A stretch of 64,000 nucleotides of DNA from Thermoproteota archaeon (GCA_029258925.1 JAPDJV010000001.1:9885-73884); one strand, 5' to 3'; positions 2,453 to 21,202 are shown, counted from the first letter of the stretch. Numbers and translations: made by a program. Notes: a model not told the origin generated them from the letters alone.

Positions 2453-3733
2453 ATGGGATTCAGAGTGTCGTCGTGCTCTCAGCTACTTCCTGGCGAGCTG
2501 GCAATTATAAATATTCTATTTAATATAATGTTATATGGGAATGGTGCTGCTAGAATGCTTGAGGGCATAGCGGAGCTACCATTACATGAAGGCCATGTTC
2601 CACAGTGGTTGATAAGACTTATGAAGAGGCTTTCTAAGGCATTAATAGAGGTTCTTGTAATCGAGTACGGACCTCGTAAAGTTGTTGAGAGGCTCAGTAA
2701 CCCTCTATGGTTTCAGGCGTTCAATAATATCATAGGTATGGACTGGGATAGTAGCGGTTCAACTACTGTGACAACAGGTATTTTAAGAGAGGTTTCATGG
2801 AAGAGTGATCTGGGGATACTTGTTTTGGGAGGTAAGGGTAGGAGAGCTAGGAGGATTCCCGAAGAACTTGAGAGGGCTGTTGAAAAGCTGGGTTTAAGCG
2901 ATGAATATGTTAAACGGTTGAGAGATGTTTCGAGGATAATAGCTAAAGTAGACTCCTCTCTCTTACAAGATGGTTACCAGCTTTACCATCAAGCACTTAT
3001 TTTGTCTGAGGACGGTTCTTGGAGCATAGTACAGCAGGGCATGAACATTGAAGCTAGGATGGCCCGTAGATATCATTGGTTTTCTGAAGGTCTAAGAAGC
3101 CTTGTTGAGGAGCCGCACAGGGGCATTGCATGCAGTAGGAGGGAGAACAGGATTATCAATTTAGTTGCGTCTGAGAGTAGGAGGGTTAGATCAATAATAT
3201 TGGATCTCCTCAAAGAACCCCCACGGAAAACCCTTAATCTCATAGGTGAAGCATACAGGGTGTCCAAAGGATATAGGAGTATTCTTGAGTGGACTACACA
3301 CGCGAGTAAAGTTGTCATATTGAAAAAAGATAGATTAGCCTACTATAAGCCTCTGCCAAACCCCCTCAAACTTAAGGGGATCCTTGAAAGCGCATACGAG
3401 TTGAGACCTAGGAGGCTAGAAGAAGCTCTCCTCATTAAGGGCTTAGGCCCCGAAACTATTAGAGCACTTGCTCTAATATCTGACCTAATATACAGGGAGC
3501 CCCCCTCCTGGAGAGACCCTGCTAACTATCCCTACGACCCATTTAAATACGCATATGCTTTCGGAGGAAAAGACGGGGTACCCTATCCTATTAAAAGGGA
3601 GGAAATGGAGAGGATTCTAGAAATGCTGGAGAAAGCTGTTGATGAGGCCAAGCTTGAGGGAGGAGAGAGATCCATGCTTATTAGGAGGCTTAGGTCCATG
3701 AGAAACAATCTAGAACGTTATGAAAACTGTTGA
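2453..3733 (+). CDS. conserved hypothetical protein (possibly DUF763-like); true start probably internal Met
   Basis: 426 aa soluble ORF, GMDWDSSGSTT motif, Arg/Lys-rich C-terminus; no recognisable catalytic motif. Confidence 0.3.
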   Translation: MGFRVSSCSQLLPGELAIINILFNIMLYGNGAARMLEGIAELPLHEGHVPQWLIRLMKRLSKALIEVLVIEYGPRKVVERLSNPLWFQAFNNIIGMDWDSSGSTTVTTGILREVSWKSDLGILVLGGKGRRARRIPEELERAVEKLGLSDEYVKRLRDVSRIIAKVDSSLLQDGYQLYHQALILSEDGSWSIVQQGMNIEARMARRYHWFSEGLRSLVEEPHRGIACSRRENRIINLVASESRRVRSIILDLLKEPPRKTLNLIGEAYRVSKGYRSILEWTTHASKVVILKKDRLAYYKPLPNPLKLKGILESAYELRPRRLEEALLIKGLGPETIRALALISDLIYREPPSWRDPANYPYDPFKYAYAFGGKDGVPYPIKREEMERILEMLEKAVDEAKLEGGERSMLIRRLRSMRNNLERYENC

Positions 3734-3822
3734 TCCAACATGCAGGCTTTTTGTAGAATTATTATAATTGGATTTCTAGCTTGTGAACAGATTTATATGT
3801 GCTATTGCACGTAATCTAAGCG

Positions 3823-4260
3823 GTGAAACACTTGTATAGAGGTGGACCCGGCAGGGGTATGGGTAGGGGAGGGTGGATCCAACCACCTTCAGGCATGCCC
3901 CAAATACCATTACCCCCAAACACGTATAGGGTAGTTACTACAACAATGGATGATAGGGGAGTGGAGTCACTTATAGCTCAACGCTTTACTAGAGCTCCGT
4001 TCATAATGGTGATCGATATTGTAGATGGTAGAGTGGTCAATGTCCAAGCCTTCTCGAATCAGTTCGCTAATTACCCCAGAGGAGCTGGGATAATGTTTTC
4101 ACAATGGATAGCGTCTATTGGTGCTAGAGCAGTACTAGCTTCAAACGTTGGCCCGAATGCAAGCTACGTTCTCCAGCAGGCTGGCATAGCAGTGCACATA
4201 GTGCCTCCTGGAACAAGAATTATTGATGCTCTAAGAAGTTTAGGCATCGCGAGGATGTAG
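3823..4260 (+). CDS. NifX/NifB-C-terminal-like dinitrogenase FeMo-cofactor-binding domain protein
   Basis: C-terminal ~100 aa (RAPFIMVID..GAGIMFSQWIASIGARAVLASNVGPNASYVLQQAGIAVH) matches the NifX/NafY/NifB-C fold; N-terminal 40 aa Gly/Arg/Pro-rich, so real start may be Met at 3946. Confidence 0.5.
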   Translation: MKHLYRGGPGRGMGRGGWIQPPSGMPQIPLPPNTYRVVTTTMDDRGVESLIAQRFTRAPFIMVIDIVDGRVVNVQAFSNQFANYPRGAGIMFSQWIASIGARAVLASNVGPNASYVLQQAGIAVHIVPPGTRIIDALRSLGIARM

Positions 4261-4264
4261 TTCT

Positions 4265-5149
4265 ATGGAGATCGTTGTAGCAAGCGGTAAAGGTGGAACT
4301 GGTAAAACGTTCGTCTCCTCGAATCTAACTTATTTTTTGAGGTCGCTTGGAGCTAAAGTGGTTGCTGTAGATGCTGATGCAGAAGCCCCGGACCTCCTCC
4401 TAGCCCTGGGAGGAGCTTCCGAGAATGTTTATTCGAGAGAAGTCTATAGGTCGCGTAAAGCTGTAATAGACCACGGGAGATGTGTCTCCTGCATGAAGTG
4501 TTTTGAGACTTGCAGATTCAATGCTATAGAGTTATCCAATGGCAAACCCGTTGTTGTTGAAGAGTACTGTGAGGGATGTGGTGCTTGCAGTATTGTTTGC
4601 CCAAGCAATGCTATAAGCTTTGTAGTTAAACGAACAGGTTTAATCAGCTGCGATGTTTCAAAATATGGAATTAAAGTTGTAACAGCCGATCTGGAAGTTG
4701 GTGGAAGAAATACGGGGGAACTGGTTTACATGGCTAAAGAAGAGGCGCATAGAATTGCTGATAGCGAGGGAGCGAAGTACATTGTTGTGGATGCTGCAGC
4801 GGGCATAGGGTGCCCAGTTATATCCAGCTTAGCTGGAGCAGACATATTGATAGTAGTAGTGGAGCCCTCACCCCAGTCGCTTAAGGGTGCCAGAAGACTC
4901 TTAGAAGTAGCGGAGTCTTTTAGGACAAGAAACCTCCTCATATTAAACAAGTACGATTTAAACCCCAATTTCTCCGAAAAAGTTGCTTCAACACTTGGAA
5001 TAGAGGTTTTAGGTAAAATACCCTACGACTACACTATTGTGAAAGCATATGCTAGCATGACACCATTTTTAGCCTATAGTAGTGGGGGGAGAGCTCTTAA
5101 ACCACTCGTAGAATCCTTTAGAACACTCTATGAAGGTGTTTTAAAGTGA
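4265..5149 (+). CDS. MinD/Mrp-superfamily P-loop ATPase with inserted 2x[4Fe-4S] ferredoxin domain (COG1149-like)
   Basis: Deviant Walker A GKGGTGKT; two CxxCxxCxxxC(P) motifs (CVSCMKCFETC, CEGCGACSIVCP). Confidence 0.7.
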   Translation: MEIVVASGKGGTGKTFVSSNLTYFLRSLGAKVVAVDADAEAPDLLLALGGASENVYSREVYRSRKAVIDHGRCVSCMKCFETCRFNAIELSNGKPVVVEEYCEGCGACSIVCPSNAISFVVKRTGLISCDVSKYGIKVVTADLEVGGRNTGELVYMAKEEAHRIADSEGAKYIVVDAAAGIGCPVISSLAGADILIVVVEPSPQSLKGARRLLEVAESFRTRNLLILNKYDLNPNFSEKVASTLGIEVLGKIPYDYTIVKAYASMTPFLAYSSGGRALKPLVESFRTLYEGVLK

Positions 5150-6021
5150 CAAAGATAATTACTGTTGCCGGGGGGAAGGGTGGGACAGGTAAGACGACGG
5201 TTGCAGTAAACCTGTCTTATCTCCTATCCAAGAGGGGGAAGACGATTTTAGTTGATGCAGATGTGGAGAATCCATGTGTTCCCGCAACTATAGCTGGGAG
5301 GATCGTAGTTAATAGAATTGTTGAAGTTAAAGGCTTTAAACCTGTATTCGATTACGGGAAATGCGTTAAATGCGGTCTATGCGTTGAAAAATGTCCAGAA
5401 CACTCCTTAACTATGCTGCCCAGTGGAAGAATAATTTACTTTGAAACCCTCTGCTCAGGATGTAGTTCATGTATGCTTGTTTGCCCAGCGAACGCTATAT
5501 CTGAAGGTTATAGATTGGAGGGATTGTTTAGGTTTGGAAGAGCCTTAGACACCATGGATGTTATTGTAGGCGAGATCGTTCCGGGCAATAGGAGAAGCGG
5601 AGTTCTCATAGCTAGGTTGATAGAGGAAAACTTGGAAAACTTTCGTAAATACGATTTCGTGGTAATTGATTCCCCTCCTGGAACGTTTGCAGGAGTATAC
5701 TCAACAATAAAACATGCTGAAACAATTCTGGCCGTTACTGAGCCAACACCTTTAGGGGTAAACGATCTGAGGAAATTCATTAAGCTTGCTCGGAAGTACG
5801 GTAAAGAAGACATTAACGTGGTTGTAAATAAGTATGGAATACCGGGAGGTTCATATGAGGAAATAGAGCGCATAGTGGAGGAATTAGGACTCCGATTATT
5901 TAAAATACCTTACAGTAGAATAGTGTTCGATTCTGTAGTGCGGGGAGTACTAGTAGTGGAGGAGTACCCCGAATCCGATGCAGCGAAAAGTATAGAGAGG
6001 CTAGCGCTCGCACTCTCATAA
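5146..6021 (+). CDS. MinD/Mrp-superfamily P-loop ATPase with inserted 2x[4Fe-4S] ferredoxin domain (paralog)
   Basis: GGKGGTGKT Walker A; CVKCGLCVEKCP and CSGCSSCMLVCP; start GTG overlaps upstream stop (GTGA), translational coupling. Confidence 0.7.
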   Translation: MTKIITVAGGKGGTGKTTVAVNLSYLLSKRGKTILVDADVENPCVPATIAGRIVVNRIVEVKGFKPVFDYGKCVKCGLCVEKCPEHSLTMLPSGRIIYFETLCSGCSSCMLVCPANAISEGYRLEGLFRFGRALDTMDVIVGEIVPGNRRSGVLIARLIEENLENFRKYDFVVIDSPPGTFAGVYSTIKHAETILAVTEPTPLGVNDLRKFIKLARKYGKEDINVVVNKYGIPGGSYEEIERIVEELGLRLFKIPYSRIVFDSVVRGVLVVEEYPESDAAKSIERLALALS

Positions 6022-6152
6022 GTAGCTTGAAACATATATTCCAGTAAAACTGCTATTAGCAATGGTTAAAGGAGGTGCTGGACCGAGTAAAATACTCCAT
6101 GGATTACTTGCGGCAAGCTCTCTATAAAGAGAGCAATGTCTAAAATGTCCTC

Positions 6153-6413
6153 TCAAATGTTTTCGCCAACTAGCACCTCAAATACTGGCGGGTTCTCAGC
6201 AACTATTTTAACACTTAAACCCTTTTTCCTAGCTATAACTCTTATAGTTTCCACAGGGATCCTCCTAGAATCCGTGATAACTTTTATGATTTCCCCTTTC
6301 CTGAGAGTCTTAACAGCTTTCTTTAGCCTTACTAGAGGGTGTTCCGTACATCCTGGGGGAGGCCTCCTTAAATCTATTATAATAATTTCCTCTTCCAATG
6401 GAGAAGTTTCCAT
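6153..6413 (-). CDS. TusA-like sulfurtransferase / sulfur-carrier protein (variant Cys motif)
   Basis: 86 aa; IDLRRPPPGCTEHPLVRLKKAVKTL aligns with TusA LDxRGLxCPxP..kk; C-x-x-x-P instead of CPxP. Confidence 0.5.
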   Translation of the reverse strand: METSPLEEEIIIIDLRRPPPGCTEHPLVRLKKAVKTLRKGEIIKVITDSRRIPVETIRVIARKKGLSVKIVAENPPVFEVLVGENI

Positions 6414-6416
6414 CGC

Positions 6417-6914
6417 CTACTCACTCCCCATTCTCTTATACATTAACTCCACGATCCTCTCCTCCCCTAACGCCTGTAATTCTTCTCTTGTAAGTTTCTC
6501 GGGAAGCCATTTAGACTTGACCTCTCTACTCTTATAGTATTCTCTAATAGCTCTTCTAAGCGCTCCAACTGCTAGTATGCCGCAGTGATACTTTATTGAG
6601 GGTAATCCGCCTAGTTCATCGGATACGTTTTTCCATGAAATATTCCATGCTTCTTCAAGGCTTAATCCCTTTATCATCTCGGTTAGAATGCTGGCTGTAG
6701 CTATGTTAGCTGCACAACCATAACTCTCGAAAGACGCTCTAACAACTGTTTCCTTCCCATCATCTATTTTCAAATATATTGCTATCATGTCTCCGCATGC
6801 AGGGCTACCTGCAATAGCTTTCACGGAGGCATCATCCATGTAACCCATGTTCTTGGGGTTCCTGAACAACTCTATTATTTTATGTGAGTGCGGTAAAGGT
6901 ATTCTAGTGGACAT
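6417..6914 (-). CDS. iscU: Fe-S cluster assembly scaffold IscU/NifU-N-terminal-like
   Basis: FRNPKNMG..GSPACGDMI..FESYGCAANIATASILTEMIKGLSLEEA..YHCGILAVGALRRAI follows the IscU consensus including the three ligand Cys; ~35 aa C-terminal extension. Confidence 0.75.
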   Translation of the reverse strand: MSTRIPLPHSHKIIELFRNPKNMGYMDDASVKAIAGSPACGDMIAIYLKIDDGKETVVRASFESYGCAANIATASILTEMIKGLSLEEAWNISWKNVSDELGGLPSIKYHCGILAVGALRRAIREYYKSREVKSKWLPEKLTREELQALGEERIVELMYKRMGSE

Positions 6915-8139
6915 TCTTGGCCCTCCTTGGCTTTATTGAGCTTATCCTCCTTAACCTATTAATTGATTCTTGTAACACCTTCAAAGTATACTCCACGTCC
7001 TCGGGGCTATGATATCTAGAAAGTTTGAACAGTATGCTTCCATGGGCCTCCTCGTGTCTCCTACCTATGGCTAAGAGGGCGTGGCTTGGTTCTAAGACTC
7101 TACTCGTGCAAGCACTCCCGCTCGAAACATATATTCCGTTAAGGCTTAACTCGATTGTTATAGCCTCTCCCTCAACATATAGGAAACTGACGTTGAGATT
7201 ATCTACAACTCTCTTCTCCCCTAATAGTCCGTTTACGAGTACTTCCTGAATTTCATCGAGTATCCCATTCAATAGCCTTTCTCTAAGCTCTTTAACATAA
7301 GTTACCTGCTTATTGAAGTCCCTGTAAACAAGCTCGGCAGCTTTATGGAACCCCACTATAGATGGTACATTCTCTACTCCCAGCCAAAGCGTTTGAGTGC
7401 TCAGTGCTCCATGGATTATTTTCTCGACTTTAACTCCATTTCTCACATATAGTGCACCTGCGCCTTTAGAAGCCAGTATTTTATGGTTGCTTAAAGTTAG
7501 CATGTCGACTCCAAGATCCTCAACGTTTATTGGAATCCTGCAATAGGCGTCAGCTGCATCAGTGTGAATAAGGGTTTGGGGATTAATTTCTTTAACAATT
7601 CTGCTTATCTCTCTCAAAGGCTGAATTGAACCTATTTCGTGGTTTACCAGTTGAATGCTGACTAGTACAGTGTCTTTGTCTATGAGTATTTCAAGAATAT
7701 CTAGGTCCACTATTCCTTCTTCGTCCACAGGTACTTGAACCACTTTAAAGCCCAGTTGTTCCAGACTATTTGCCGGTAAGAGTACACTGAAGTGTTCTAT
7801 GGCTGAGATAATTACCTTTCACTTCTTCCCTCCAATAGTGCTTCCAATTATTGCGAGATTATTCACCTCAGTACCACTATGTGTGAAGAATATTTCATCT
7901 GGTGAAGCATTTATGCTGCTTGCAATGAACTCTCTTGCTTCTAATAGAGCTTCAAGAGCCTCCCATCCCGGTTTATGAGTTATGGATGGATGACCATATC
8001 CTCTCTCATTGAAATACAGTATCATAGCTTCCAATACTTCCCTAGGAACCCATCCACTATTTTCCAGGTCGTAGTATACTTCCCTCGTAGGCTTTCCATG
8101 AACTCTCAATAACTCCCTTATCTTAGCTGACTCACTCAT
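6904..8139 (-). pseudogene. iscS: cysteine desulfurase IscS/NifS family interrupted by a single in-frame TGA (at 7819..7821)
   Basis: ORFs 7819..8139 (N-term, ..TEVNNLAIIGSTIGGKK*) and 6904..7743 (..LSNHKILASKGAGALYVR.., SGSACTS) are in the same frame; the stop-free reading KK*KVIISAIEHFSVL aligns with IscS KKGKHIITSKTEHKAVL, the TGA falling on a conserved Gly. Confidence 0.65.
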
Positions 8140-8211
8140 AAAATTATCTCTACTCGAATATACATATATAACACTGTTACAAATATCTTTCTAAGAGGAG
8201 GTACAGGAATA

Positions 8212-9447
8212 TTGGCTTTAAACCCTCATTTAATTAGAAGAGACTTCCCCATCTTAAATAGGAAAATCTACGGGAAGAAAATAATCTACTTGGATAATGC
8301 TGCAACATCTCAAAAACCATTACAGGTCATCAACGCTATTAAAAAATTCTATGAGACAAATAACGCGAACATACATAGAGGCGTACATAAGTTAAGCGAT
8401 GAAGCAACAGACTTATACGAGAAAGCTCGGGAGACTGTAGCCTCCTTCATAAATGCCGAGAAGTCTGAGAACATTGTCTTCGTTAGAAATACTACTGAGG
8501 CATTGAACTTAGTTGCATATTCCTGGGGCTTATTTAATGTTAATCCAGGCGATGAAATAGTTTTATCTATCATGGAACACCACAGCAACATGCTTCCGTG
8601 GATCAAACTTGCCGAAGTGAGGAACGCAGTAATTAAAATAGTCGATGTTGACGATTATGGAAGGCTCTCCATTGATGATCTAGAGGAAAAAATAACCGAG
8701 AAAACAAAGCTTGTGGCGATAACCCACATGTCAAACGTTACTGGGGTAATAAACGACGTAAAGAAAGTTACTAGAATAGCCAAGAGGCGGGGGGCAGTAG
8801 TGGTCGTCGATGGAGCACAAAGCGTGCCGCACATGCCAGTCGACGTTAGGAATATTGGAGCAGACTTCATGGCTTTCAGCGGCCACAAAATGCTTGGCCC
8901 AACTGGGATAGGAGTACTATATGTGAGTGAGGAGAGACTTAATGAAATGAACTGTTTTCTAACTGGTGGAGGAGTGATAAAGGAGGTGCACTACGTTAAT
9001 GGAGGGATAAGCGTTAAATGGGCTGAGCCACCATGGCTTCTCGAGGCTGGCACACCTAATATAGCGGGAGCAGTTGGCCTAATGGAGGCAGTCAACTACC
9101 TTAGGAGTGTGGGATTGGAGAACATTAGAAGGCATGAAATTGAACTAGTAAAACACTTACTTGACAGGTTTGCAGACGAGTTCAAAAACATACGTTTATG
9201 CGGTCCCCTAGATATTGTGGATAGGGGTGGAATAGTATCTTTCACTATAGGCTTATTCGATCCCCACAGCACAGCTATATTCCTAGACAGTGAGGGAATA
9301 GCTGTTAGAAGCGGCTTCCATTGTGCACAGCCACTGCACGAAAAGCTAGGATTTACTAGGGGAAGTGTTAGGGCAAGCTTCTACATATATAATACTGTGG
9401 AAGAAGTTGATTTTCTAGTTGAAGCATTGAAGAGAATTGTCCAGTGA
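8212..9447 (+). CDS. SufS/CsdA-type (class V aminotransferase fold) cysteine desulfurase
   Basis: 411 aa; N-terminal RRDFPIL..IYLDNAATSQKP, PLP-lysine context FSGHKMLGPTGIGVLYV, C-terminal GFHCAQP..RASFYIYNT typical of SufS group II. Confidence 0.7.
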   Translation: MALNPHLIRRDFPILNRKIYGKKIIYLDNAATSQKPLQVINAIKKFYETNNANIHRGVHKLSDEATDLYEKARETVASFINAEKSENIVFVRNTTEALNLVAYSWGLFNVNPGDEIVLSIMEHHSNMLPWIKLAEVRNAVIKIVDVDDYGRLSIDDLEEKITEKTKLVAITHMSNVTGVINDVKKVTRIAKRRGAVVVVDGAQSVPHMPVDVRNIGADFMAFSGHKMLGPTGIGVLYVSEERLNEMNCFLTGGGVIKEVHYVNGGISVKWAEPPWLLEAGTPNIAGAVGLMEAVNYLRSVGLENIRRHEIELVKHLLDRFADEFKNIRLCGPLDIVDRGGIVSFTIGLFDPHSTAIFLDSEGIAVRSGFHCAQPLHEKLGFTRGSVRASFYIYNTVEEVDFLVEALKRIVQ

Positions 9448-9494: not shown

Positions 9495-10441
9495 ATGAAA
9501 GCTGTTAAACAGAGAGCTAAGAGTGTTTCCAAACACCCTATCCCTGCTCGTAGATAACTGGCCAACACGCTTGTTAGGCTTGAAACAGAGTCGCATGGAG
9601 GTAAAGAGGTTTGGGCAAAGCTGGAATGCTATAATCCATTTAGTAAGAGCATAAAAGGATAGAGCAGTATGGGGTATGGTATTGAAGATGTTGGAGAAGA
9701 GGAGTCTAACAGAGGTCGTTATGGAGGCTACCTCAGGAAATGTGGGATTATCTCTTTTAAGCATTTGTAACATTCTAGGATTAAAATTCACTGCATTCAT
9801 TTTCTCGACAACTCCTCAAGCAACTGAGACACTCTTGAAGACTTTCGGAGCAAATGTTATCAGAACAAACTATGAAACAATAAACCAGGAGTTCTGGAGA
9901 GAGGTCCAAGAGTATGCCGAGAGTACTGGTGCCATCAATTTAAATCAATTCGAAAACGATGCAAACTTCGAAATCCACTACAATACTACAGCAGTGGAAA
10001 TATTGAAACAGTTGGAATCCATAGGTAGGAAACCGGACTATGTTTTTGCTGGAATAGGAACATCAGGGCATATAGCAGCTATTACTAAGAGAATTAGAGA
10101 GCGCTATGGTGGGAATGTGAGAGTTATAGGTGTTCAACCAGCTAGAGGATGCTCTATTCCTGGAATCAAGAGGGTTGAAACTAAGCCTAAGTGGATAAGG
10201 TGTGTGAGCGTAGATGAAGTGGTTGATGTAAGTAGAGCCGAAGCCATTGAGGGTACCATAGATTTGGCTATTAGGGAGGGTATATGTTGGTTTGAGCTCT
10301 GGAGCAGTCTATTCAGCCTACAAGAAGAAAGCCGGTATTAGGGGAACCTGTGTTCTAGTGTTTCCAGATGATGCTTTCAAATACGTTGAAGTATTCGAGG
10401 AATACTTGGCTCTTTCCAGACACCGCTTAGGTTTCAAGTGA
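9495..10441 (+). pseudogene. cysteine synthase / O-acetylserine (O-phosphoserine) sulfhydrylase family (PALP) pseudogene with three lesions
   Basis: Three frames give LANTLVRLETESHGGKEVWAKLECYNPFSKSIK / DRAVWGMV..TSGNVGLSL.. / IVGLSSGAVYSAYKKKAGIRGTCVLVFPDDAFKYVE, all cysteine-synthase hallmarks; in-frame TAA at 9555, +1 shift near 9655, +1 shift near 10285. Confidence 0.6.
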
Positions 10442-12550: not shown

Positions 12551-13690
12551 TTGAAGGAGAGAGTGTTGATAGTCGATCCCATTAGGAGCGGTGGTGTAGT
12601 ACCTGAGAGTGTGAAGAGAAGTCTTCTGGAATATTTGAATGGCTACTCTGTTTGCATGTACTGTCCAGGAGATTTACACAAAATAACTAAACCAAATATT
12701 AAGAGACTTATTCAAGTAGATCTCCCGGAGTTCATGGGGGCAGATGTTGTGAGACTAGTGCACGGTGCGAGAGAAGCATTTTTCACAGTATTCTACGCCT
12801 TATTCAAGGAACATGTTTTGACGCGGGGTGATAGGGCCCCAGTTATAGTTGTTGATGGAAATACACATTACTCTCTGGAGCTCGCGGCAGAGAGGTCTCT
12901 TCTGAAAATTATTGAAACGGAGACTTCTGGTTATCCATTGTTCAAAGTTGGTCTAGAACATTATGAGGAGGCTTTAGAGTCTGTTGTGGAGGAACACGGT
13001 AAGCCCCCTCTCGTAACATGCATAACATATCCCGATGGAAAATACGGTAACTTCCCCGATAACATTAAGGGAATAATTAAATTAGCGAGGGAACATGGTA
13101 GCTATACTCTAATCAACGCAGCTTACTCCATTGGAAGAATGCCCGTGAGCTTAAGGGATCTTGAAGCAGACTTCATCGTTGGGTCGGCACACAAGTCTAT
13201 GGCGTGTTCAGGACCCTTGGGAGTACTTGGAATGAGGGAGGAAGCGGCAAGTTTAGTATTGAAGAGAAGTGTTCGCCATCCATCAAAGGAAGTAGAGTTG
13301 CTTGGCTGTACCGTTAGAGGTCTGCCTGCAGTATGCCTCATCATGGTAATGCCTTATCTGAGGAGGAGAGTTAAGGAGTGGGAGAGAGTAGTCGATCTAG
13401 CTAGATACTTCTACGAGAGAGCTGAGAGAGAGCTGGGGTTAATGCTTTTGGGAGAGAAACCACATAGCCATGACCTACTTCACTTCGAAACACCTGCTTT
13501 CTACAAGATTTCCCTAAAACTGAGAGACAGGTTTTTCTTATACAAAGAGTTGAAGAAGAGAGGCATTATTGGAGTTAAGCCTGGAATAACGAAGAGAATT
13601 AAATTGAGTACTTACCTACTTAATAGGGAAGAGGTAGACTACGTTCTAGACAGTCTAAGAGAAATATTGGAGTTAGGTGAAGGTGACTAA
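12551..13690 (+). CDS. O-phospho-L-seryl-tRNA(Cys):Cys-tRNA synthase (SepCysS), PLP-dependent
   Basis: 379 aa fold-type I PLP enzyme; CxxC near residues 35/38 (CMYC), PLP-Lys in SAHKSMAC followed by a Cys, the conserved trio described for SepCysS; immediately upstream of and overlapping a SepRS-like gene; TTG start. Confidence 0.6.
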   Translation: MKERVLIVDPIRSGGVVPESVKRSLLEYLNGYSVCMYCPGDLHKITKPNIKRLIQVDLPEFMGADVVRLVHGAREAFFTVFYALFKEHVLTRGDRAPVIVVDGNTHYSLELAAERSLLKIIETETSGYPLFKVGLEHYEEALESVVEEHGKPPLVTCITYPDGKYGNFPDNIKGIIKLAREHGSYTLINAAYSIGRMPVSLRDLEADFIVGSAHKSMACSGPLGVLGMREEAASLVLKRSVRHPSKEVELLGCTVRGLPAVCLIMVMPYLRRRVKEWERVVDLARYFYERAERELGLMLLGEKPHSHDLLHFETPAFYKISLKLRDRFFLYKELKKRGIIGVKPGITKRIKLSTYLLNREEVDYVLDSLREILELGEGD

Positions 13691-15215
13691 TGTGAAACTT
13701 GATATCCAAAGAATTCTAAGAGACTTGGATAAAGAAGAGTTCACTACGGTTTGGGGAAATTATTCTGAAATAATTCCTAGAAAAGGAGGCAAATTAAAGC
13801 TTCCTGAGACCGAGGGCAAGCCCAGCATACTGTTAGAAGTGCTCTTCAAAGTTAGGAAAGCGCTTCTGAACTTAGGGTTCGAGGAAGTGGTCAATCCAAT
13901 ATTCATAGATTCCTCTGAAGTATATCGCCAATATGGTCCTGAAGCCCCTATAATACTTGACAGAATATACTTTCTAGCAGATCTCCCAAGACCAGACATA
14001 GGGTTAGATAAGAAGACCGTTGAGAAAATTAAAGCGATCTCCCAGAACATAAATTTGAGAGTACTTCAAGCAGTTCTGAGGGAGTACAAGGAGAGGAAAA
14101 TAAGTTCTGATGACCTCGTAGGCGAGTTGAAGAAGAGACTACATATTGAAGACCACGAAGCTCTCAAAATACTCGAACTTTTCGAACCCCTAATAAAGCT
14201 CACCCCAATACCGTCATCTCTAACTCTGAGATCCCATATGACTGGAGCCTGGTTTTCTACAATATCGGAAATCTTGGAGTGGAGAGATCCCCCACTATAC
14301 CTATTCTCAATAGACTGGGTTTTCAGGAGGGAACAAAGAGTTGATGAATCCCACCTAAAGTATTATCATTCAGCCTCCATAGTTGTAGTTGATGAGGATC
14401 TTAGTGATGATATAGCTCACAGCTTGACTAGGATAGTGCTAGAGAAAATAGGTTTCAAGAAGTTCAAGACAGTGTTGAAAGATGATACAGCAAGATATTA
14501 TGCCAAGGGCAGGGAGTGGGAGGTATATTTAGATTTCATGGGTGAAGAATATGAGGTTGGAACTTACGGACTATACTCTCCAATATCCCTAGCAAAATAC
14601 GGCATACCCTACCCAGTCTACAACTTCGGTATAGGCTTAGAGAGGCTGGCTCAGGTCATAGTTGGTGAGAGAGATATTAGGAGAATCCTTTTCCCATACA
14701 AATACTTTAAGCTCAGCGATCAAGAAATAGCGGAGCGCATAAAGCCCTTAAGGAGGCCGGAGACGTCTAAGGGAAAACATATCGAGAGAGTGCTGCTGGA
14801 AAAAATATGGGAGCTAAAGGATAAAATTGGTCCATTCAAGGAAAAAATCTACGAGGATGAAGATGTTACGATATTCCTGTGGGAACCAGATCCTAAGCCG
14901 TATGCTGGTAAAGCAACTTTCAACAAGATCTATGTTAAGGACGGGGGCATTATCAGTAGCATAGAGGATATAAGCGGAGTGTACATTGGCCGCTATGTGG
15001 ACTTTATAGTTAAAATGATAGCGTCAAGTATTGAGAGAGGGTTCAGGGGAGTTATTAGGGTTAAGTGGGCTAATGGTCCCTCGGACATAAACGTGCATAT
15101 TCCAAGTAAGATAGTGAAATACATTAACACTATTGGTGGGAGAATAGATATTAAAGGACCTGTGTTTGTAGATGTGATAGTAGAGGACTCTACTAAAGAA
15201 AAGCTCAAAACATAA
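13677..15215 (+). CDS. O-phosphoseryl-tRNA synthetase (SepRS), class II aaRS related to PheRS alpha
   Basis: 512 aa; class II motif 3 GIGLERLAQVIVGERDIRRILFPY located mid-protein and followed by ~180 aa C-terminal domain, the SepRS layout rather than PheRS; 14-nt overlap with SepCysS. Confidence 0.55.
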   Translation: MKVTNVKLDIQRILRDLDKEEFTTVWGNYSEIIPRKGGKLKLPETEGKPSILLEVLFKVRKALLNLGFEEVVNPIFIDSSEVYRQYGPEAPIILDRIYFLADLPRPDIGLDKKTVEKIKAISQNINLRVLQAVLREYKERKISSDDLVGELKKRLHIEDHEALKILELFEPLIKLTPIPSSLTLRSHMTGAWFSTISEILEWRDPPLYLFSIDWVFRREQRVDESHLKYYHSASIVVVDEDLSDDIAHSLTRIVLEKIGFKKFKTVLKDDTARYYAKGREWEVYLDFMGEEYEVGTYGLYSPISLAKYGIPYPVYNFGIGLERLAQVIVGERDIRRILFPYKYFKLSDQEIAERIKPLRRPETSKGKHIERVLLEKIWELKDKIGPFKEKIYEDEDVTIFLWEPDPKPYAGKATFNKIYVKDGGIISSIEDISGVYIGRYVDFIVKMIASSIERGFRGVIRVKWANGPSDINVHIPSKIVKYINTIGGRIDIKGPVFVDVIVEDSTKEKLKT

Positions 15216-15986: not shown

Positions 15987-17114
15987 GTGGATGTGATAAC
16001 TTTGACCTGGATTTACCTGAGACCTGATGCAATAAGTGTTTGGGAGAACAGTGAGGTTAGAGATAGACTTTCCTGGTATTACAGGGTTATGAGAGATTTG
16101 GCTCCAGCCAGATTCATAATATGCAAGCATATTCCAGTTGAACAGGATCCCTCCTCCCTCAGCGTAGAAGAATTGTGGAAGCAGCACGATAAGGCTGCAG
16201 AAGAGTTTTGGAAAATATATCGCGAAATAGATTCAGGCGAAATGAAACTGGAGGAGTTGGAGAAGCCTAAGTGGAGTCTCCTAGACGTTAAAGCCGAGCT
16301 AGCTAAGAGGATCATCGAATCTTGTAGGCTATGTGAGCATAGATGCGGAGTTAATAGGCTTAAGGGGGAGAGAGGATTTTGCAGACTCTCTTCCGAGACA
16401 ATAGTTGACTCCTGGTTCCTACATTACGGAGAAGAAGCCCCCCTGGTCCCCAGCGGGACAATATTTTATGGAAGCTGTAATTTTAGATGCGTTTTCTGCC
16501 AAAACTATATGATATCCCAGGTGAAGCCGTTCGATGGTATTGTAGTTGATGAAAAACAGTTGGCCCTAATGCAGGAGGAGTTGAGGAGAAAGGGTGCTAG
16601 GAACATAAACCATGTTGGAGGAGAGCCAACTCCCCACCTTCACACGATAATCTCTTCAATGAAGCACTTAGATGAGAATACTCCTCAACTCTGGAATAGC
16701 AACATGTACTGTAGCGTTGAGGCAATGAAGCTGTTACTGGAGGTCATCGACATATGGCTACCTGACTTAAAGTACGGTAATAACAATTGTGCAAGTAGAC
16801 TTTCAGGCATCAAGGGTTACTGGGAGATTGCATCAAGGAATATTAAGATGGCCCACGACCACGGAGACATAATTATAAGACACCTAGTCTTACCGAATCA
16901 TCTTGAGTGCTGCACTAGACCAATTCTGGAGTGGATTTCAAAGAATTGTCCAAGATCCCTAGTAAACGTTATGGAGCAGTATAGACCAATGTACCTCGTA
17001 CCAAGGTATCCCGACAAATACAAGGACATTGCTAGACCTCTTAAAGCAGATGAGATCAAAGAAGCGTATAAGATCGCCGAGGAATTGGGCATAGTATTCG
17101 AGCCAGTAAGCTAA
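15987..17114 (+). CDS. radical SAM enzyme, PFL-activase-like (AmmeMemoRadiSam-type)
   Basis: 375 aa; N-terminal Cys cluster CRLCEHRCGVN..GFCRL then canonical CNFRCVFCQN (CxxxCxxC) radical SAM motif. Confidence 0.55.
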   Translation: MDVITLTWIYLRPDAISVWENSEVRDRLSWYYRVMRDLAPARFIICKHIPVEQDPSSLSVEELWKQHDKAAEEFWKIYREIDSGEMKLEELEKPKWSLLDVKAELAKRIIESCRLCEHRCGVNRLKGERGFCRLSSETIVDSWFLHYGEEAPLVPSGTIFYGSCNFRCVFCQNYMISQVKPFDGIVVDEKQLALMQEELRRKGARNINHVGGEPTPHLHTIISSMKHLDENTPQLWNSNMYCSVEAMKLLLEVIDIWLPDLKYGNNNCASRLSGIKGYWEIASRNIKMAHDHGDIIIRHLVLPNHLECCTRPILEWISKNCPRSLVNVMEQYRPMYLVPRYPDKYKDIARPLKADEIKEAYKIAEELGIVFEPVS

Positions 17115-17122
17115 GGTGATAT

Positions 17123-17338
17123 TTGGAGATGGGGGAAATAACCATAGTTTTTTCGCCGGGAGGAGAGAAGAGAAGAATAGTGGTAGATGAATCGATGAGA
17201 GTCAGAGAACTCCTAAAAACGCTGCTTTTAGATGAGGAAAGCGTTGTAGTTGTTAGGGGGGATGAGGTATTAACTGAGGACAGAGTAGTTAGACCTGGAG
17301 AAATACTAACAGTTTTCAACGTTATGTCTGGAGGCTGA
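17123..17338 (+). CDS. ThiS/MoaD-family ubiquitin-like sulfur-carrier protein (SAMP/TtuB-like), C-terminal Gly-Gly
   Basis: 71 aa, ends ..VFNVMSGG-stop; beta-grasp size; directly upstream of TtuA/NcsA gene. Confidence 0.6.
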   Translation: MEMGEITIVFSPGGEKRRIVVDESMRVRELLKTLLLDEESVVVVRGDEVLTEDRVVRPGEILTVFNVMSGG

Positions 17339-17341
17339 AAA

Positions 17342-18301
17342 TTGAAATGTAAATATTGTAATGGAAAAGCTGTAATATATGTTAGGAGAACAAGGACACC
17401 GCTCTGCCCCAGCCACCTAGAAGAATACCTCATAAAAAATGTGGTAAAAGTCTTCAAGCACTATAGAATAGACTTGTCAAATAAGAAGATATTGATAGCG
17501 TTATCTGGCGGTAAAGATAGTTCAACTATGGCGAGTTTAATGAAGAAGCTTTCTGAAGTAGAAGACTTTGAGGTTGTCGGATTATACATCGACCTCGGCA
17601 TACCAAAATATTCTGATTACAGCTTGAAAGCTGTAGAAAAACTTTCGAGAAGCCTCGATCTAGAAGTTAGAACAATAAATCTTAGGGAAGCCTTAGGCTT
17701 CAATATTTCCGATACCGGATTTAAGAGGAGGACTATTTGTAGTGCATGTGGAATAATAAAGAGGTATCTAATGAATTATGCTGCATTAGTCGATGGTTGC
17801 CAGATCATAGCGACTGGGCACACTTTAGACGACATAACAGCCTACATTCTCAAATCCTACATAACACAGGATCTGAAAAGTCTCGTAAAGTTAGGCGTCT
17901 ACAATCCGCCTTTAAACAAGCTTATCCCCGGAAAAGTTAAGCCCCTCGGATACGTAAGTGAGAAAGAAAGTTTAGTTTACGTGTTATCATCGAATTACCC
18001 CTTCTACCATGAGGAGTGCCCATACGTCTCCCATGAAACCATAGAATTCCAAGCAAAGAGATTTCTCAACATGGTTGAAGCCAAGCATCCAGGCATAAAA
18101 CTTTACATGCTTAGAGAATACGAGAAAAATAGGCAATTATACGAGAAGCTGGTGGAGTACCCACCACTAAGGAGATGTAAAATATGTGGTATGCCTTCTC
18201 AAAGAGAAGTTTGCTCTTTTTGCAGCATAGTAAAGAGAATTACTGGAAGCTATGATAGCGTTCTAAAAATGTGGGAGAATAATTTTCTCAGAATCATTTA
18301 A
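17342..18301 (+). CDS. tRNA 2-thiolation PP-loop ATPase, TtuA/NcsA (Ncs6/Ctu1) family
   Basis: 319 aa; N-terminal CxxC..C..H zinc finger, PP-loop SGGKDS, C-terminal CKICG..CSFCS zinc finger. Confidence 0.7.
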   Translation: MKCKYCNGKAVIYVRRTRTPLCPSHLEEYLIKNVVKVFKHYRIDLSNKKILIALSGGKDSSTMASLMKKLSEVEDFEVVGLYIDLGIPKYSDYSLKAVEKLSRSLDLEVRTINLREALGFNISDTGFKRRTICSACGIIKRYLMNYAALVDGCQIIATGHTLDDITAYILKSYITQDLKSLVKLGVYNPPLNKLIPGKVKPLGYVSEKESLVYVLSSNYPFYHEECPYVSHETIEFQAKRFLNMVEAKHPGIKLYMLREYEKNRQLYEKLVEYPPLRRCKICGMPSQREVCSFCSIVKRITGSYDSVLKMWENNFLRII

Positions 18302-20359: not shown

Positions 20360-21202
20360 TTAGCTGGCGCTTTTCGCTTCAACTCCTCCCAACGATATCT
20401 CGATTTCAATCTTATTCACCGTAGATGGAATTCCCTTCAACGTCCTTACGAGAGATCCTATAACTTCTAAGAACACTTTTCTAGGATAGGGGGAGAGCGG
20501 AATCGTCTTATTATTGACTACCAGCTTTACATTCCATAATTCCGTTAGTTCGCTTGGGTTTAAGTTACCTCTTAAAGCAGCTAGTGCTAGCGATCTATTA
20601 TCACCGTACTCAAGCCTTTTAACTAATGATGCTGGTATGAGTCCGGCTATTTGTGAAATCATGTCTTCGACCACGTATTCTATCAGCTCCTCTAATTGGT
20701 TCTCGTAGAAGAATTTGATACCCCGTTTCTCAAGTGCTTCAATCAATCTCTGTTCTCTAGATTTAACGTAGCAAGCAACTACGTCCCTCCTTATAGCATC
20801 GATGATCTCGATGTCGTCCCAGTCCTCAACTATTACAACCTTATGATAGCCTGTAATACCCCTGAATCCCTCAACTACGATGGCCAGGATCTCCCAAGGA
20901 ATAATATTATTTAATACTTTATCTAAACTGGCAGTTTCCCTCATAACAATCTCCATGACCCATGGGGAGACAGCTACAACAATATCAGCCCCGCTTTCAA
21001 AAAGTCTCCTAGAATCCCTATTAGCTAAGTCTATTTTCTTTGAGGCATGTTTTACTGCTGCTACTCTTATCCCCCTACTTCTTAAAGCCTTTATTAGGCT
21101 TGAAGCAAGCGAAGTTTTACCTCTCTTCCTCTTAGACGAGACGATTTGTATTATGCTTCTAAAAGGTGCCTTCATCAACATGCAACAAGCCTCCCACAAC
21201 AT
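20360..21202 (-). CDS. MobB-like P-loop protein (molybdopterin-guanine dinucleotide biosynthesis adapter family) with extra C-terminal domain
   Basis: 280 aa; degenerate Walker A SKRKRGKTSL, then VAAVKHAS..D..RDSRRLFESGADIVVAV pattern of MobB; true start probably downstream Met. Confidence 0.4.
   Translation of the reverse strand: MLWEACCMLMKAPFRSIIQIVSSKRKRGKTSLASSLIKALRSRGIRVAAVKHASKKIDLANRDSRRLFESGADIVVAVSPWVMEIVMRETASLDKVLNNIIPWEILAIVVEGFRGITGYHKVVIVEDWDDIEIIDAIRRDVVACYVKSREQRLIEALEKRGIKFFYENQLEELIEYVVEDMISQIAGLIPASLVKRLEYGDNRSLALAALRGNLNPSELTELWNVKLVVNNKTIPLSPYPRKVFLEVIGSLVRTLKGIPSTVNKIEIEISLGGVEAKSAS

What the first reader, a model, noticed from the sequence alone, without database searches (positions are those of the whole stretch)
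3823..9447. Compact Fe-S / sulfur-trafficking neighbourhood: NifX-like protein, two ferredoxin-containing MinD/Mrp ATPases, TusA-like protein, IscU, IscS and SufS
A NifX/NifB-C-like cofactor-binding domain protein precedes two translationally coupled P-loop ATPases (GTGA overlap at 5146), each carrying an inserted 2x[4Fe-4S] ferredoxin domain. This trio is conserved in anaerobic archaea and of unknown function. Convergently arranged are a TusA-like protein with a variant CTEHP motif, IscU and IscS, and divergently a SufS-type desulfurase. The co-localisation suggests a dedicated Fe-S cluster or persulfide relay, with the ATPases as cluster carriers or insertases.
Basis: partly seen in the sequence, partly recalled or inferred. 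Interest (0 to 1): 0.55.

Follow-up and report, generated by a model that had tools for sequence, protein, structure and literature searches.

The report
Two unrelated iron-sulfur gene modules, adjacent
The genes are real and correctly named, but they form two separately conserved modules (an 'orange-protein'-type ATPase trio and a minimal Fe-S assembly cassette) that sit together only in this archaeal lineage, and the IscS gene here carries a premature stop codon.

Summary
All seven genes are at the stated coordinates and belong to the stated families. There is one correction: IscS (6904-8139, minus strand) is interrupted by an in-frame TGA at 7819-7821. A 99.98%-identical contig has GGA (Gly) there.

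The region holds two independent modules.

- **Module A (3823-6021, plus strand).** A Cys-free NifX-domain protein of the IssA/orange-protein type, with a cationic Gly/Arg/Pro N-terminal tail. It is followed by two translationally coupled MinD/NifH-fold ATPases, each with an inserted 2x[4Fe-4S] ferredoxin domain. This is the archaeal counterpart of the Orp8-Orp3-Orp4 core of the Desulfovibrio ORP complex.
- **Module B (6153-9447).** A SufS-type desulfurase divergent from IscS-IscU-TusA-like. This is an extended archaeal minimal iron-sulfur system (MIS) cassette.

The linkage is not conserved. None of the 80 other ATPase-pair loci carries the Isc cassette; one holds a weak (6e-14) aminotransferase-like SufS hit. 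None of 83 archaeal IscU loci carries the trio. In a closed relative genome the two modules lie about 800 kb apart.

New details:
- The IssA-like tail sits on the N-terminus in 17 of 19 archaeal trios.
- One switch-II cysteine is invariant in ATPase1.
- A small TusA-like clade has a C-x-x-x-P motif.

Interest is modest.

The parts
3823..4260 (+). Module A, gene 1: Cys-free NifX-domain (PF02579/IPR003731) protein of the IssA/orange-protein type. It has a cationic Gly/Arg/Pro-rich N-terminal tail (MKHLYRGGPGRGMGRGGWIQPPSGMPQIPLPP). The start is ambiguous: GTG at 3823 or ATG at 3859.
   Evidence: Pfam E 2.7e-14. Closest solved structures: MTH1175 1eo1 (1.7e-12) and ORP 2wfb (4.1e-7). No Cys; the first 35 residues contain 8 Gly, 7 Pro, 3 Arg and no acidic residue. 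An equivalent N-terminal tail occurs in 17 of 19 complete archaeal orthologues.
4265..5149 (+). Module A, gene 2: ATPase1. MinD/NifH-fold deviant-Walker-A ATPase with a 2x[4Fe-4S] ferredoxin domain inserted between switch I and the Walker B strand. It has an invariant switch-II Cys183 (GIGCPV).
5146..6021 (+). Module A, gene 3: ATPase2, a paralogue (29% identity) translationally coupled by a GTGA overlap. It has the same architecture, with 8 invariant ferredoxin cysteines, but no switch-II Cys.
   Evidence: Fused double-ATPase ORFs in L071 and L077 argue that the two paralogues work as a dimer.
6153..6413 (-). Module B: TusA-like small protein with the variant motif GC-TEH-P. The family motif is C-x-x-x-P, with an invariant Cys.
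   Evidence: PF01206, 33.7 bits against cutoff 28.6. Only 29 clusters at E<=1e-3 among 1.84e9 representatives. C22, P26 and P53 are invariant in 29 sequences. Found directly downstream of IscU in 16 of 77 informative archaeal loci.
6417..6914 (-). Module B: IscU/MisU scaffold with the canonical ligands C40, D42, C67, H110 and C111, plus a conserved C-terminal extension.
   Evidence: NifU_N E 1.2e-35. 64-76% identical across Thermoproteota, with those residues invariant.
6904..8139 (-). Module B: IscS/MisS type-I cysteine desulfurase (SNHK Lys at residue 217, SGSAC at residue 340). It is interrupted by an in-frame TGA at 7819-7821 (codon 107).
   Evidence: The TGA is also in contigs L083 and L084, which are 100% identical to the window. 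L085 (99.976% identical over 16.4 kb) has G instead of T at 7821, giving GGA and an intact 411-aa IscS.
8212..9447 (+). Module B: SufS-type (type II) cysteine desulfurase, divergent from IscS across a 72-bp AT-rich spacer.
   Evidence: TIGR01979, 538.5 bits against cutoff 475.1. SGHK at 223 and HCA at 370. A SufS-type gene lies within 3.5 kb of IscU in 21 of 33 informative archaeal loci, in varying order.
9514..10408 (+). Outside the stated range: a decayed CysK/CysM-like (PALP) pseudogene next to SufS.
   Evidence: Alignment to the intact orthologue in L090 needs three frame switches and crosses an in-frame stop. It is the same 221-aa fragment in all four same-species assemblies.

Best explanation
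The region holds two independent, individually conserved modules that lie tail-to-tail only in this lineage.

**Module A** is an ORP-type operon.
- Shown: a Cys-free, IssA/orange-protein-like NifX-domain protein is encoded with two paralogous MinD/NifH-fold ATPases. Each ATPase has a deviant Walker A and an inserted 2x[4Fe-4S] ferredoxin domain.
- Inferred: the two ATPases form an ATP-sandwich heterodimer.
- Inferred: the NifX-domain protein holds an anionic inorganic metal-sulfide species non-covalently, helped by its cationic Gly/Arg tail. That species would be thioferrate-like Fe-S, or a Mo/W-S cluster as in the orange protein.
- Inferred: the heterodimer acts on this species as a nucleotide-gated redox partner in the manner of NifH. 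The ferredoxin clusters would pass electrons, and switch II with its conserved Cys183 would couple ATP binding and hydrolysis to docking, so that the bound species is assembled or reductively mobilised.

**Module B** is an extended archaeal minimal Fe-S assembly (MIS) cassette.
- Shown: IscS plus IscU, a second SufS-type desulfurase, and a TusA-like protein with an invariant cysteine.
- Inferred: the TusA-like protein is a persulfide carrier taking sulfur from one of the desulfurases.
- Inferred: in this genome IscS is knocked out by a recent G-to-T nonsense change, leaving SufS (or free sulfide) as the sulfur source.
For: **Independence of the two modules**
- The trio occurs in all 20 archaeal loci, and the ATPase pair in 60 further loci, without the Isc cassette beside them; one locus has a weak SufS-like hit.
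- Of 83 archaeal IscU loci, IscS is adjacent in 78 of 79 informative cases and none has the trio.
- In closed genome CP072660 the modules are about 800 kb apart.
- The four genes of module B stay together while changing order (L089, L090, L093-L096, L109).

**ORP identity of module A**
- Bacterial loci holding homologues of both ATPases also encode a NifX-like protein and an MrpORP-type P-loop protein (363-386 bits to NF041136).
- The orange protein structure 2wfb matches the NifX-like protein.
- Orp3, Orp4 and Orp8 co-purify and bind Fe-S (PMC6345978).

**Dimer**
- GTGA translational coupling.
- Signature Lys in both Walker A motifs.
- Fused double ATPases in L071 and L077.

**Redox-switch idea**
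- Ferredoxin-type CxxCxxCxxxCP motifs are invariant.
- A Cys lies seven residues after the Walker B Asp. It is invariant in 21/21 archaeal ATPase1 and present in 68 of 89 bacterial ATPase1-like ORFs. From memory, this is the spacing of NifH D125...C132.

**Carrier idea**
- The NifX-like protein has no Cys and a cationic tail, as IssA does (PMC5524996).
- The best solved match is the IssA-type protein MTH1175.
- SipA/IssA and two adjacent 'CobQ + 4Fe-4S' genes are co-induced by S0 in Palaeococcus (PMC6981617).

**IscS lesion**
-.
Against: - The mechanism of module A is inference only. No cluster, complex, ATPase activity or electron transfer was or could be measured here.
- The NifH analogy rests on fold similarity and motif spacing. 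hhalign against a recalled NifH sequence aligned only the C-terminal part, so the equivalence of Cys183 and Cys132 is not demonstrated. ATPase2 lacks that Cys, so no symmetric bridging site exists.
- The window's tail is short (about 30 residues) and N-terminal, unlike the roughly 70-residue C-terminal tail of IssA. If translation starts at ATG 3859 it is shorter still.
- The Desulfovibrio authors favour a cell-division role.
- The assemblies carrying the TGA have only about 5-6x coverage and may derive from one sample, so a consensus error cannot be excluded.
- Adjacency in this one lineage could still reflect local co-regulation.
Confidence: 0.7

Rival explanations
1. One reading: the seven genes form one dedicated Fe-S or persulfide relay. 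The desulfurases feed TusA and IscU, and the ferredoxin-ATPases carry or insert the finished clusters, with the NifX-like protein as an intermediate carrier.
For: The genes are physically adjacent in four same-species assemblies. All products plausibly touch Fe-S or sulfur chemistry. The wider 6-18 kb stretch is rich in sulfur-related genes: SepCysS, SepRS, ThiS-like and TtuA-like.
Against: The linkage is absent in 80 ATPase loci and 83 IscU loci, and the modules are 800 kb apart in a closed relative genome. The two modules are convergently transcribed and so cannot share a transcript. The ATPases lack the Mrp/NBP35 CxxC motif and score 36-61 bits against cutoffs of 348-450. Orp3/Orp4 are cluster recipients in vitro (PMC6345978).
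Confidence: 0.08
2. Module A is a MinD-like positioning or cell-division device, as proposed for the Desulfovibrio ORP complex, with the Fe-S domains acting as redox sensors.
Against: The MinD models are missed by a wide margin: 76-82 bits against a cutoff of 201.75. The strict coupling to a cluster-binding NifX-domain protein with a mineral-binding-type tail is not explained by this role. No division genes sit beside the trio in the 20 archaeal loci. Many Thermoproteota do not divide by FtsZ (general knowledge).
Confidence: 0.12
3. Module A handles a molybdenum or tungsten sulfide cluster, as the orange protein binds [S2MoS2CuS2MoS2], rather than an iron sulfide.
For: Orange protein 2wfb is a detectable homologue. 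Orp8 binds a Mo-Cu-S cluster non-covalently (PMC6345978). The protein has no Cys. A MobB-like gene lies at 20360-21202.
Against: The best solved match is the IssA-type MTH1175, not the orange protein (1.7e-12 against 4.1e-7). The Gly/Arg/aromatic tail is the IssA hallmark tied to thioferrate (PMC5524996). Bacterial ORP-type NifX-likes lack such tails. The physiological relevance of the Mo-Cu cluster is itself unsettled.
Confidence: 0.1
4. The IscS TGA is not a knockout. It is either a low-coverage consensus error, or it is read through or recoded, so IscS is functional.
For: The contigs carrying it have about 5-6x coverage. The change is G to T, a common artefact class. A near-identical contig has GGA. 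A second archaeal IscS (L162) also has TGA at a Gly position 8 codons away.
Against: The same base appears in three assemblies made under different accessions. TGA ends 17 of 59 ORFs in the window, including ATPase1, so it is not reassigned. The neighbouring CysK-like gene is unambiguously decayed, which shows real gene loss at this locus.
Confidence: 0.2

Closest known systems
ORP (orange protein) complex core of Desulfovibrio vulgaris: Orp8 (DVU2108), Orp3 (DVU2103), Orp4 (DVU2104)
   Same: One single-domain Nitro_FeMo-Co protein plus two adjacent paralogous MinD/ParA-type ATPases, each with two [4Fe-4S] ferredoxin motifs. Bacterial loci holding homologues of the window's ATPases also encode MrpORP-type proteins (PMC6345978).
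   Different: There is no MrpORP (Orp9), Orp5, Orp7 or sigma54 regulator OrpR next to the archaeal trio. The gene order is NifX-ATP1-ATP2, against ATP2-ATP1 in bacteria. The NifX-domain protein carries a cationic N-terminal tail that bacterial versions lack. ATPase2 has lost the switch-II Cys.
IssA (SipA, PF2025) of Pyrococcus furiosus, the thioferrate iron-sulfur storage protein
   Same: IPR003731/PF02579 domain and no ligating cysteines. It has a Pro-rich linker plus a Gly/Arg/aromatic cationic tail. The nearest solved structure is the IssA-type MTH1175 (PMC5524996).
   Different: The tail is N-terminal and about 30 residues here, against about 70 C-terminal residues in IssA. It is encoded in a tight operon with two ferredoxin-ATPases, which the IssA paper does not mention. 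Nanoparticle formation is untested.
Nitrogenase Fe protein NifH and its relatives (BchL)
   Different: The clusters sit in an inserted ferredoxin domain, not in a single subunit-bridging [4Fe-4S]. There is no Cys97 equivalent. Pfam Fer4_NifH is matched only marginally, over the P-loop. No nitrogenase-like partner is present.
MIS (minimal iron-sulfur system, MisS/MisU) of archaea and anaerobic bacteria
   Same: An IscS-type desulfurase is directly upstream of a single-domain IscU with canonical ligands. No chaperones or ferredoxin are present (PMC13066941).
   Different: Here, and in many Thermoproteota, the pair travels with a SufS-type desulfurase (21 of 33 loci) and a TusA-like protein (16 of 77 loci). 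The review describes MIS as having no further components. IscS is interrupted in this genome.
TusA / YedF sulfur carrier family (PF01206)
   Same: Same domain above the Pfam cutoff. An invariant Cys sits at the start of the first helix region, and the gene is adjacent to a desulfurase.
   Different: The motif is C-x-x-x-P (CTEHP) instead of CPxP. The clade is small (29 clusters by phmmer). It is tied to IscU rather than to tRNA thiolation or Dsr genes.

Membership tests
ORP complex core (Orp3/Orp4/Orp8 type) | Two adjacent paralogous MinD/ParA-type P-loop ATPases, each with two 4Fe-4S ferredoxin motifs | tested here: met
   both have GKGGTGKT and 2x CxxCxxCxxxCP, are 29% identical, and overlap by GTGA.
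ORP complex core (Orp3/Orp4/Orp8 type) | Single-domain Nitro_FeMo-Co (orange-protein-like) gene in the same operon | tested here: met
   PF02579 E 2.7e-14. It lies 4 nt upstream of ATPase1. The ORP structure 2wfb matches at 4.1e-7.
ORP complex core (Orp3/Orp4/Orp8 type) | Homology to ATPase pairs of bacterial operons that also encode MrpORP | tested here: met
   In bacterial loci L026, L028, L029 and L033, the third ATPase beside the pair scores 363-386 bits to NF041136 MrpORP. No direct comparison with DVU2103/2104 sequences was possible.
ORP complex core (Orp3/Orp4/Orp8 type) | Accompanying Orp5, Orp7, Orp9 (MrpORP) and regulator OrpR | tested here: not met
   None of these lies next to the trio in the window or in the 20 archaeal loci. 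Four archaeal loci have a DUF134 HTH gene instead.
ORP complex core (Orp3/Orp4/Orp8 type) | Physical complex of the three proteins with bound Fe-S | not testable with these tools
   Needs anaerobic purification.
IssA (thioferrate storage protein) | IPR003731/PF02579 globular domain without ligating cysteines | tested here: met
   (zero Cys). The best PDB match is the IssA-type MTH1175.
IssA (thioferrate storage protein) | Cationic, Gly- and aromatic-rich C-terminal tail after a Pro-rich stretch | tested here: inconclusive
   The same composition is present but at the N-terminus and shorter. 17 of 19 archaeal orthologues have longer N-terminal GYG/GWGRGRG tails plus a PPPP linker. L079 has the tail at the C-terminus.
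IssA (thioferrate storage protein) | Forms thioferrate nanoparticles | not testable with these tools
   Needs EM, XAS or Mossbauer spectroscopy.
Mrp/NBP35/ApbC Fe-S carrier ATPases | Family model cutoffs and the C-terminal CxxC motif that bridges a labile [4Fe-4S] | tested here: not met
   ApbC scores 36 bits against 348 and MrpORP 48-61 bits against 450. There is no CxxC outside the ferredoxin insert.
MinD | Family model cutoff | tested here: not met
NifH/BchL-type ATP-dependent reductases | Subunit-bridging [4Fe-4S] bound by two Cys per subunit (Cys97 and Cys132 in Av2) | tested here: not met
   Only the switch-II Cys (C183, Walker B D176+7) is present, and only in ATPase1. hhalign to a recalled NifH sequence did not align this region.
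MIS (MisS/MisU) | Adjacent IscS-type desulfurase and single-domain IscU with Cys/Asp/Cys/His/Cys ligands | tested here: met
   IscS is adjacent to IscU in 78 of 79 related loci.
MIS (MisS/MisU) | Intact desulfurase reading frame | tested here: not met
   In-frame TGA at 7819-7821. The frame is intact in L085.
SufS (type II cysteine desulfurase) | Family cutoff, PLP lysine and catalytic cysteine | tested here: met
   TIGR01979, 538.5 bits against 475.1. SGHK at 223 and HCA at 370.
SufS (type II cysteine desulfurase) | Dedicated acceptor (SufE or SufU) or SufBCD scaffold nearby | tested here: not met
   None lies within 3823-9447 or among the neighbouring genes scanned. The rest of the window was not scanned with profiles.
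TusA (PF01206) | Pfam gathering score and conserved cysteine | tested here: met
   33.7 bits against 28.6. The Cys is invariant in 29 of 29 sequences.
TusA (PF01206) | CPxP active-site motif | tested here: not met
   The motif is CTEHP here and C-x-x-x-P across the clade.

The most novel reading that the evidence does not exclude
The archaeal trio is an energy-driven iron-sulfide store. The N-tailed IssA-like protein would nucleate a thioferrate-like Fe-S polymer. The ferredoxin-ATPase heterodimer would be its NifH-like, ATP-gated reductase, loading or reductively releasing Fe-S fragments. That would supply the missing in vivo counterpart of the DTT used in IssA experiments. In this lineage the trio would sit beside IscU so that stored Fe-S can feed the scaffold when cysteine-derived sulfur is lost (IscS stop codon, CysK pseudogene).
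Probability: 0.12. Interest if true: 0.7.

Novelty: new variant of a known kind. Interest (0 to 1): 0.3.

Why it matters
As submitted, the finding is mostly ordinary. It describes two known kinds of Fe-S-related modules that are neighbours by chance of genome arrangement.

The value lies in three by-products.

1. The poorly understood ORP-type ATPase pair is tied, across Thermoproteota, to NifX-domain proteins that carry the mineral-binding tail typical of the thioferrate store IssA. This links two literatures (ORP and IssA) and suggests a testable role for the ATPases.
2. The 'minimal' MIS system often comes with a second, SufS-type desulfurase and a distinct TusA-like carrier. It may therefore be less minimal than described.
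3. A natural IscS nonsense allele lies beside a decayed cysteine synthase gene, in an organism that has SepRS/SepCysS. This fits the view that some anaerobes can do without cysteine-derived sulfur for Fe-S assembly.

Tried and rejected
- **TusA word search.** The search for homologous proteins with the TusA-like protein returned only itself because of the word-index limit. It was replaced by the exhaustive phmmer search and by an HMM built from three orthologues.
- **NifH alignment.** The Cys183/Cys132 equivalence therefore rests on motif spacing alone.
- **RNA genes.** Rfam and tRNA scans of the whole window found nothing.
- **Missing paper.** The key ORP paper (PMC3133258) is not held. Its content was taken only as cited by later papers.
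- **Organism name.** The source remains an unnamed Thermoproteota-like archaeon whose closest ATPase1 is 63% identical and closest IscU 76% identical.
- **Recoding of the TGA.** Selenocysteine or a TGA reassignment in IscS was considered and rejected. TGA ends 17 of 59 ORFs, a near-identical strain has GGA, and the position is a non-conserved Gly.
- **Radical SAM link.** The radical-SAM gene beside the trio in CP072660 was checked as a possible orthologue of the window's radical-SAM gene at 15987-17114. The domain positions differ.
- **Antisense ORF.** The antisense ORF 6136-6537 overlapping TusA and IscU was treated as spurious.

Full report
**1. What is in the sequence**

- **NifX-like protein, 3823-4260 (+).** It is a PF02579 protein. 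Gene callers start it at ATG 3859. A TATA-like TTTATATG at 3793-3800 is also compatible with a leaderless GTG start at 3823.
- **ATPase1 (4265-5149) and ATPase2 (5146-6021).** They follow with a 4-nt gap and a GTGA overlap. Both have the deviant Walker A GKGGTGKT and two CxxCxxCxxxCP motifs.
- **Opposite strand.** A TusA-like gene (6153-6413, motif CTEHP), IscU (6417-6914) and IscS.
- **SufS-type desulfurase (8212-9447).** It is divergent from IscS and scores above its NCBIfam cutoff.
- **Correction.** IscS is broken by one in-frame TGA at 7819-7821 (...GGKK*KVIIS...), with no frameshift.

**2. The IscS stop codon**

- Contigs from two other accessions (L083, L084) are 100% identical to the window and carry the TGA.
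- A 51-kb contig from a third run (L085) is 99.976% identical over 16.4 kb. It differs at this base, reading GGA (Gly), and encodes an intact 411-aa IscS.
- TGA ends 17 of 59 ORFs in the window, including ATPase1, so it is not recoded.
- The lesion is therefore a very recent G-to-T nonsense allele. Less likely, it is a low-coverage consensus error, since the contigs have about 5-6x coverage.
- An unrelated archaeal contig (L162) has another in-frame TGA at a Gly position 8 codons upstream.
- Next to SufS lies a CysK/CysM-like gene. Aligning it to the intact orthologue in L090 needs three frame switches and crosses a stop. It is decayed in all four assemblies.

**3. Is the neighbourhood conserved?**

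*From the ATPase side.* An alignment of ATPase homologues was scanned against one genome per prokaryotic species and gave 80 loci. The window's proteins were then searched against all ORFs of those loci.
- NifX-ATPase1-ATPase2 occurs in that order in all 20 archaeal loci (Thermoprotei, Bathyarchaeia, Nitrososphaeria, Njordarchaeota and others).
- The bacterial loci, and the one Asgard locus, have the pair in the order ATP2-ATP1. They often have a NifX-like gene upstream and a third ATPase downstream.
- IscS, IscU, TusA and DUF763 were found beside the trio in none of the 80. One locus has a weak (6e-14) SufS-like hit.

*From the IscU side.* An IscU alignment was scanned against metagenomes. 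Together with three look-ups this gave 83 archaeal loci.
- IscS is adjacent in 78 of 79 informative loci.
- A SufS-type gene lies within 3.5 kb in 21 of 33.
- A TusA-like gene lies directly after IscU in 16 of 77.
- The trio is present in 0 of 83.
- The order of the four genes varies (for example SufS-IscU-TusA-IscS, or IscU-TusA-IscS-SufS), yet they stay together.

*In a closed genome.* In Desulfurococcaceae archaeon MEX13E-LK6-19 the cassette is at 0.757 Mb and the trio at 1.559 Mb.

These are two modules. Their juxtaposition is specific to this species-level lineage.

**4. Module A**

*The NifX-like protein*
- It has no cysteine.
- Its closest solved relatives are MTH1175 (1.7e-12), TM-type 1rdu, and the Desulfovibrio gigas orange protein 2wfb (4.1e-7).
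- Its first roughly 35 residues are Gly/Arg/Pro-rich with no acidic residue.
- 17 of 19 complete archaeal orthologues have longer N-terminal GYGYGWGRGRG-type tails, followed by a PPPP linker. One Asgard orthologue has the tail at the C-terminus.
- Bacterial versions lack such tails.
- This composition is the hallmark of IssA, the thioferrate store of Pyrococcus, where the tail is C-terminal (PMC5524996). That paper names MTH1175 as an IssA-type protein.

*The ATPases*
- The ATPase1 model is confident, with pLDDT 94.5.
- The sequence search of the PDB returned no chain matching both the ATPase and the ferredoxin part.
- The ferredoxin domain is inserted between switch I and the Walker B strand.
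- All ferredoxin cysteines are invariant in ATPase1, except C105 (15 of 21). Cys183, seven residues after the Walker B Asp, is invariant in 21/21 archaeal ATPase1. It is also present in most bacterial homologues but absent from ATPase2.
- Fused double ATPases exist in L071 and L077.

*Link to the ORP complex*
- The third ATPase of the bacterial loci is an MrpORP-type P-loop protein, at 363-386 bits.
- These loci are therefore the ORP operons described in Desulfovibrio. There, Orp3 and Orp4 (each with two ferredoxin motifs) co-purify with Orp8, the orange protein, and receive clusters from MrpORP (PMC6345978).
- The orp genes are expressed only at low redox potential (PMC8359166).
- A cell-division role has been suggested but not shown (PMC4672049).
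- In Palaeococcus, SipA/IssA and two adjacent 'CobQ + 4Fe-4S' genes are among the genes most induced by sulfur (PMC6981617).

**5. Proposed working of module A (inferred)**

The two ATPases form an ATP-sandwich heterodimer. The tailed, Cys-free NifX domain holds an anionic inorganic metal sulfide. The heterodimer docks on it and, in the manner of NifH, uses nucleotide-driven switch movements and its ferredoxin clusters to move electrons, so that the bound species is built up or reductively released. Only the architecture and its conservation are shown. Every functional step is inference.

**6. Module B**

- IscU has the canonical C40, D42, C67, H110 and C111 and is 64-76% identical across Thermoproteota.
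- IscS keeps its PLP lysine and catalytic cysteine.
- The pair corresponds to what recent literature calls MIS (MisS/MisU), described there as having no further components (PMC13066941).
- Here, and in many relatives, it is accompanied by a SufS-type enzyme and a TusA-like protein.
- The TusA-like protein belongs to a small clade: 29 clusters among 1.84 billion representatives.
- That clade has an invariant cysteine in a C-x-x-x-P motif rather than CPxP.
- A persulfide-carrier role is the natural inference.

**7. Context**

- Downstream lie SepCysS (above cutoff) and SepRS (just below cutoff).
- After them come a PHP hydrolase, a radical-SAM protein, a ThiS-like protein ending in GG, and a TtuA-like tRNA thiolase.
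- The stretch from 6 to 18 kb is thus rich in sulfur-related genes.
- In CP072660 the cassette is likewise followed by ThiS, a TtuA-like gene and an intact PALP gene.
- This supports a loose sulfur island around module B, but it does not include module A.

**8. Verdict**

It is wrong on the functional meaning of the adjacency and probably on the carrier role of the ATPases.
- Both modules are known kinds. The archaeal trio is a variant of the ORP core with an IssA-like tail, and the cassette is a variant of MIS.
- Interest is modest.

Noticed in passing
window 7819-7821 (minus strand): In-frame TGA in IscS (codon 107, a Gly position). A 99.976%-identical contig (L085) has GGA.
   Followed up: yes
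window 9514-10408 (+): CysK/CysM-like PALP gene decayed by at least three frameshifts and an in-frame stop. The lesions are identical in four same-species assemblies. The orthologue in L090 is intact and sits next to ThiS/TtuA-like genes.
   Followed up: yes
window 12551-15215 (+): SepCysS (424.8 bits against cutoff 365) overlaps SepRS (371 bits, just under cutoff 380.65). This is the tRNA-dependent cysteine pathway in a Thermoproteota-like genome, beside a decayed cysteine synthase gene.
   Followed up: partly
window 15987-18301 (+): A radical-SAM protein (375 aa), a 71-aa ThiS/SAMP-like protein ending in ...MSGG, and a TtuA-like tRNA 2-thiolase (231.6 bits, below cutoff 450), apparently in one operon with SepCysS/SepRS and a PHP hydrolase.
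   Followed up: partly
window 5083-5088: A G6 homopolymer near the 3' end of ATPase1. L085 has one extra base here, which would frameshift the last ~22 codons of ATPase1 in that strain, or it is an assembly error.
   Followed up: partly
L162:688-1914: An unrelated archaeal IscS with its own in-frame TGA (AIM*TAL), again at a Gly position, 8 codons upstream of the window's stop.
   Followed up: partly
L006:8916-9230, L011:2511-2858, L013:8875-9231, L015:3884-4201, L017:11958-12302: Beside the NifX-like gene in five archaeal trio loci there is a ~110-aa ORF made almost entirely of Trp, Tyr, Pro, Gly and Arg (for example MGWGWRGRGWGWWSPWPGRG...YYPWYSYWWPYPW). It has no Pfam match. It may be another mineral-binding peptide or a low-complexity artefact.
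   Followed up: partly
L006:9240-9995, L008:158-907, L010:280-1020: Nitrososphaeria versions of the NifX-like protein carry a predicted coiled-coil segment ahead of the Gly/Arg/aromatic tail, which doubles the protein length.
   Followed up: no
L071:8807-10909 and L077:551-2416: Single ORFs of about 700 and 620 residues containing four ferredoxin motifs. These are fusions of the two ATPase paralogues, in Spirochaetota and Hydrogenedentota MAGs.
   Followed up: partly
L006, L013, L015, L017 (e.g. L013:8035-8397): A DUF134 (sigma-70 region 4-like HTH) gene lies next to the archaeal trio in four loci. It is a likely regulator and is absent from the window's locus.
   Followed up: partly
L089:9765-10384: Three short fragments of a further SufS-like desulfurase lie downstream of the cassette in the closest relative. 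Desulfurase paralogues seem to decay repeatedly in this group.
   Followed up: no
window 2453-3733 (+): A DUF763 gene lies 90 bp upstream of the trio on the same strand. It is not found beside the trio in any other locus.
   Followed up: partly
window 20360-21202 (-): A MobB-like protein with a long C-terminal extension (74.4 bits, just under cutoff 76.2). It is relevant only if the NifX-like protein handles Mo/W sulfides.
   Followed up: no
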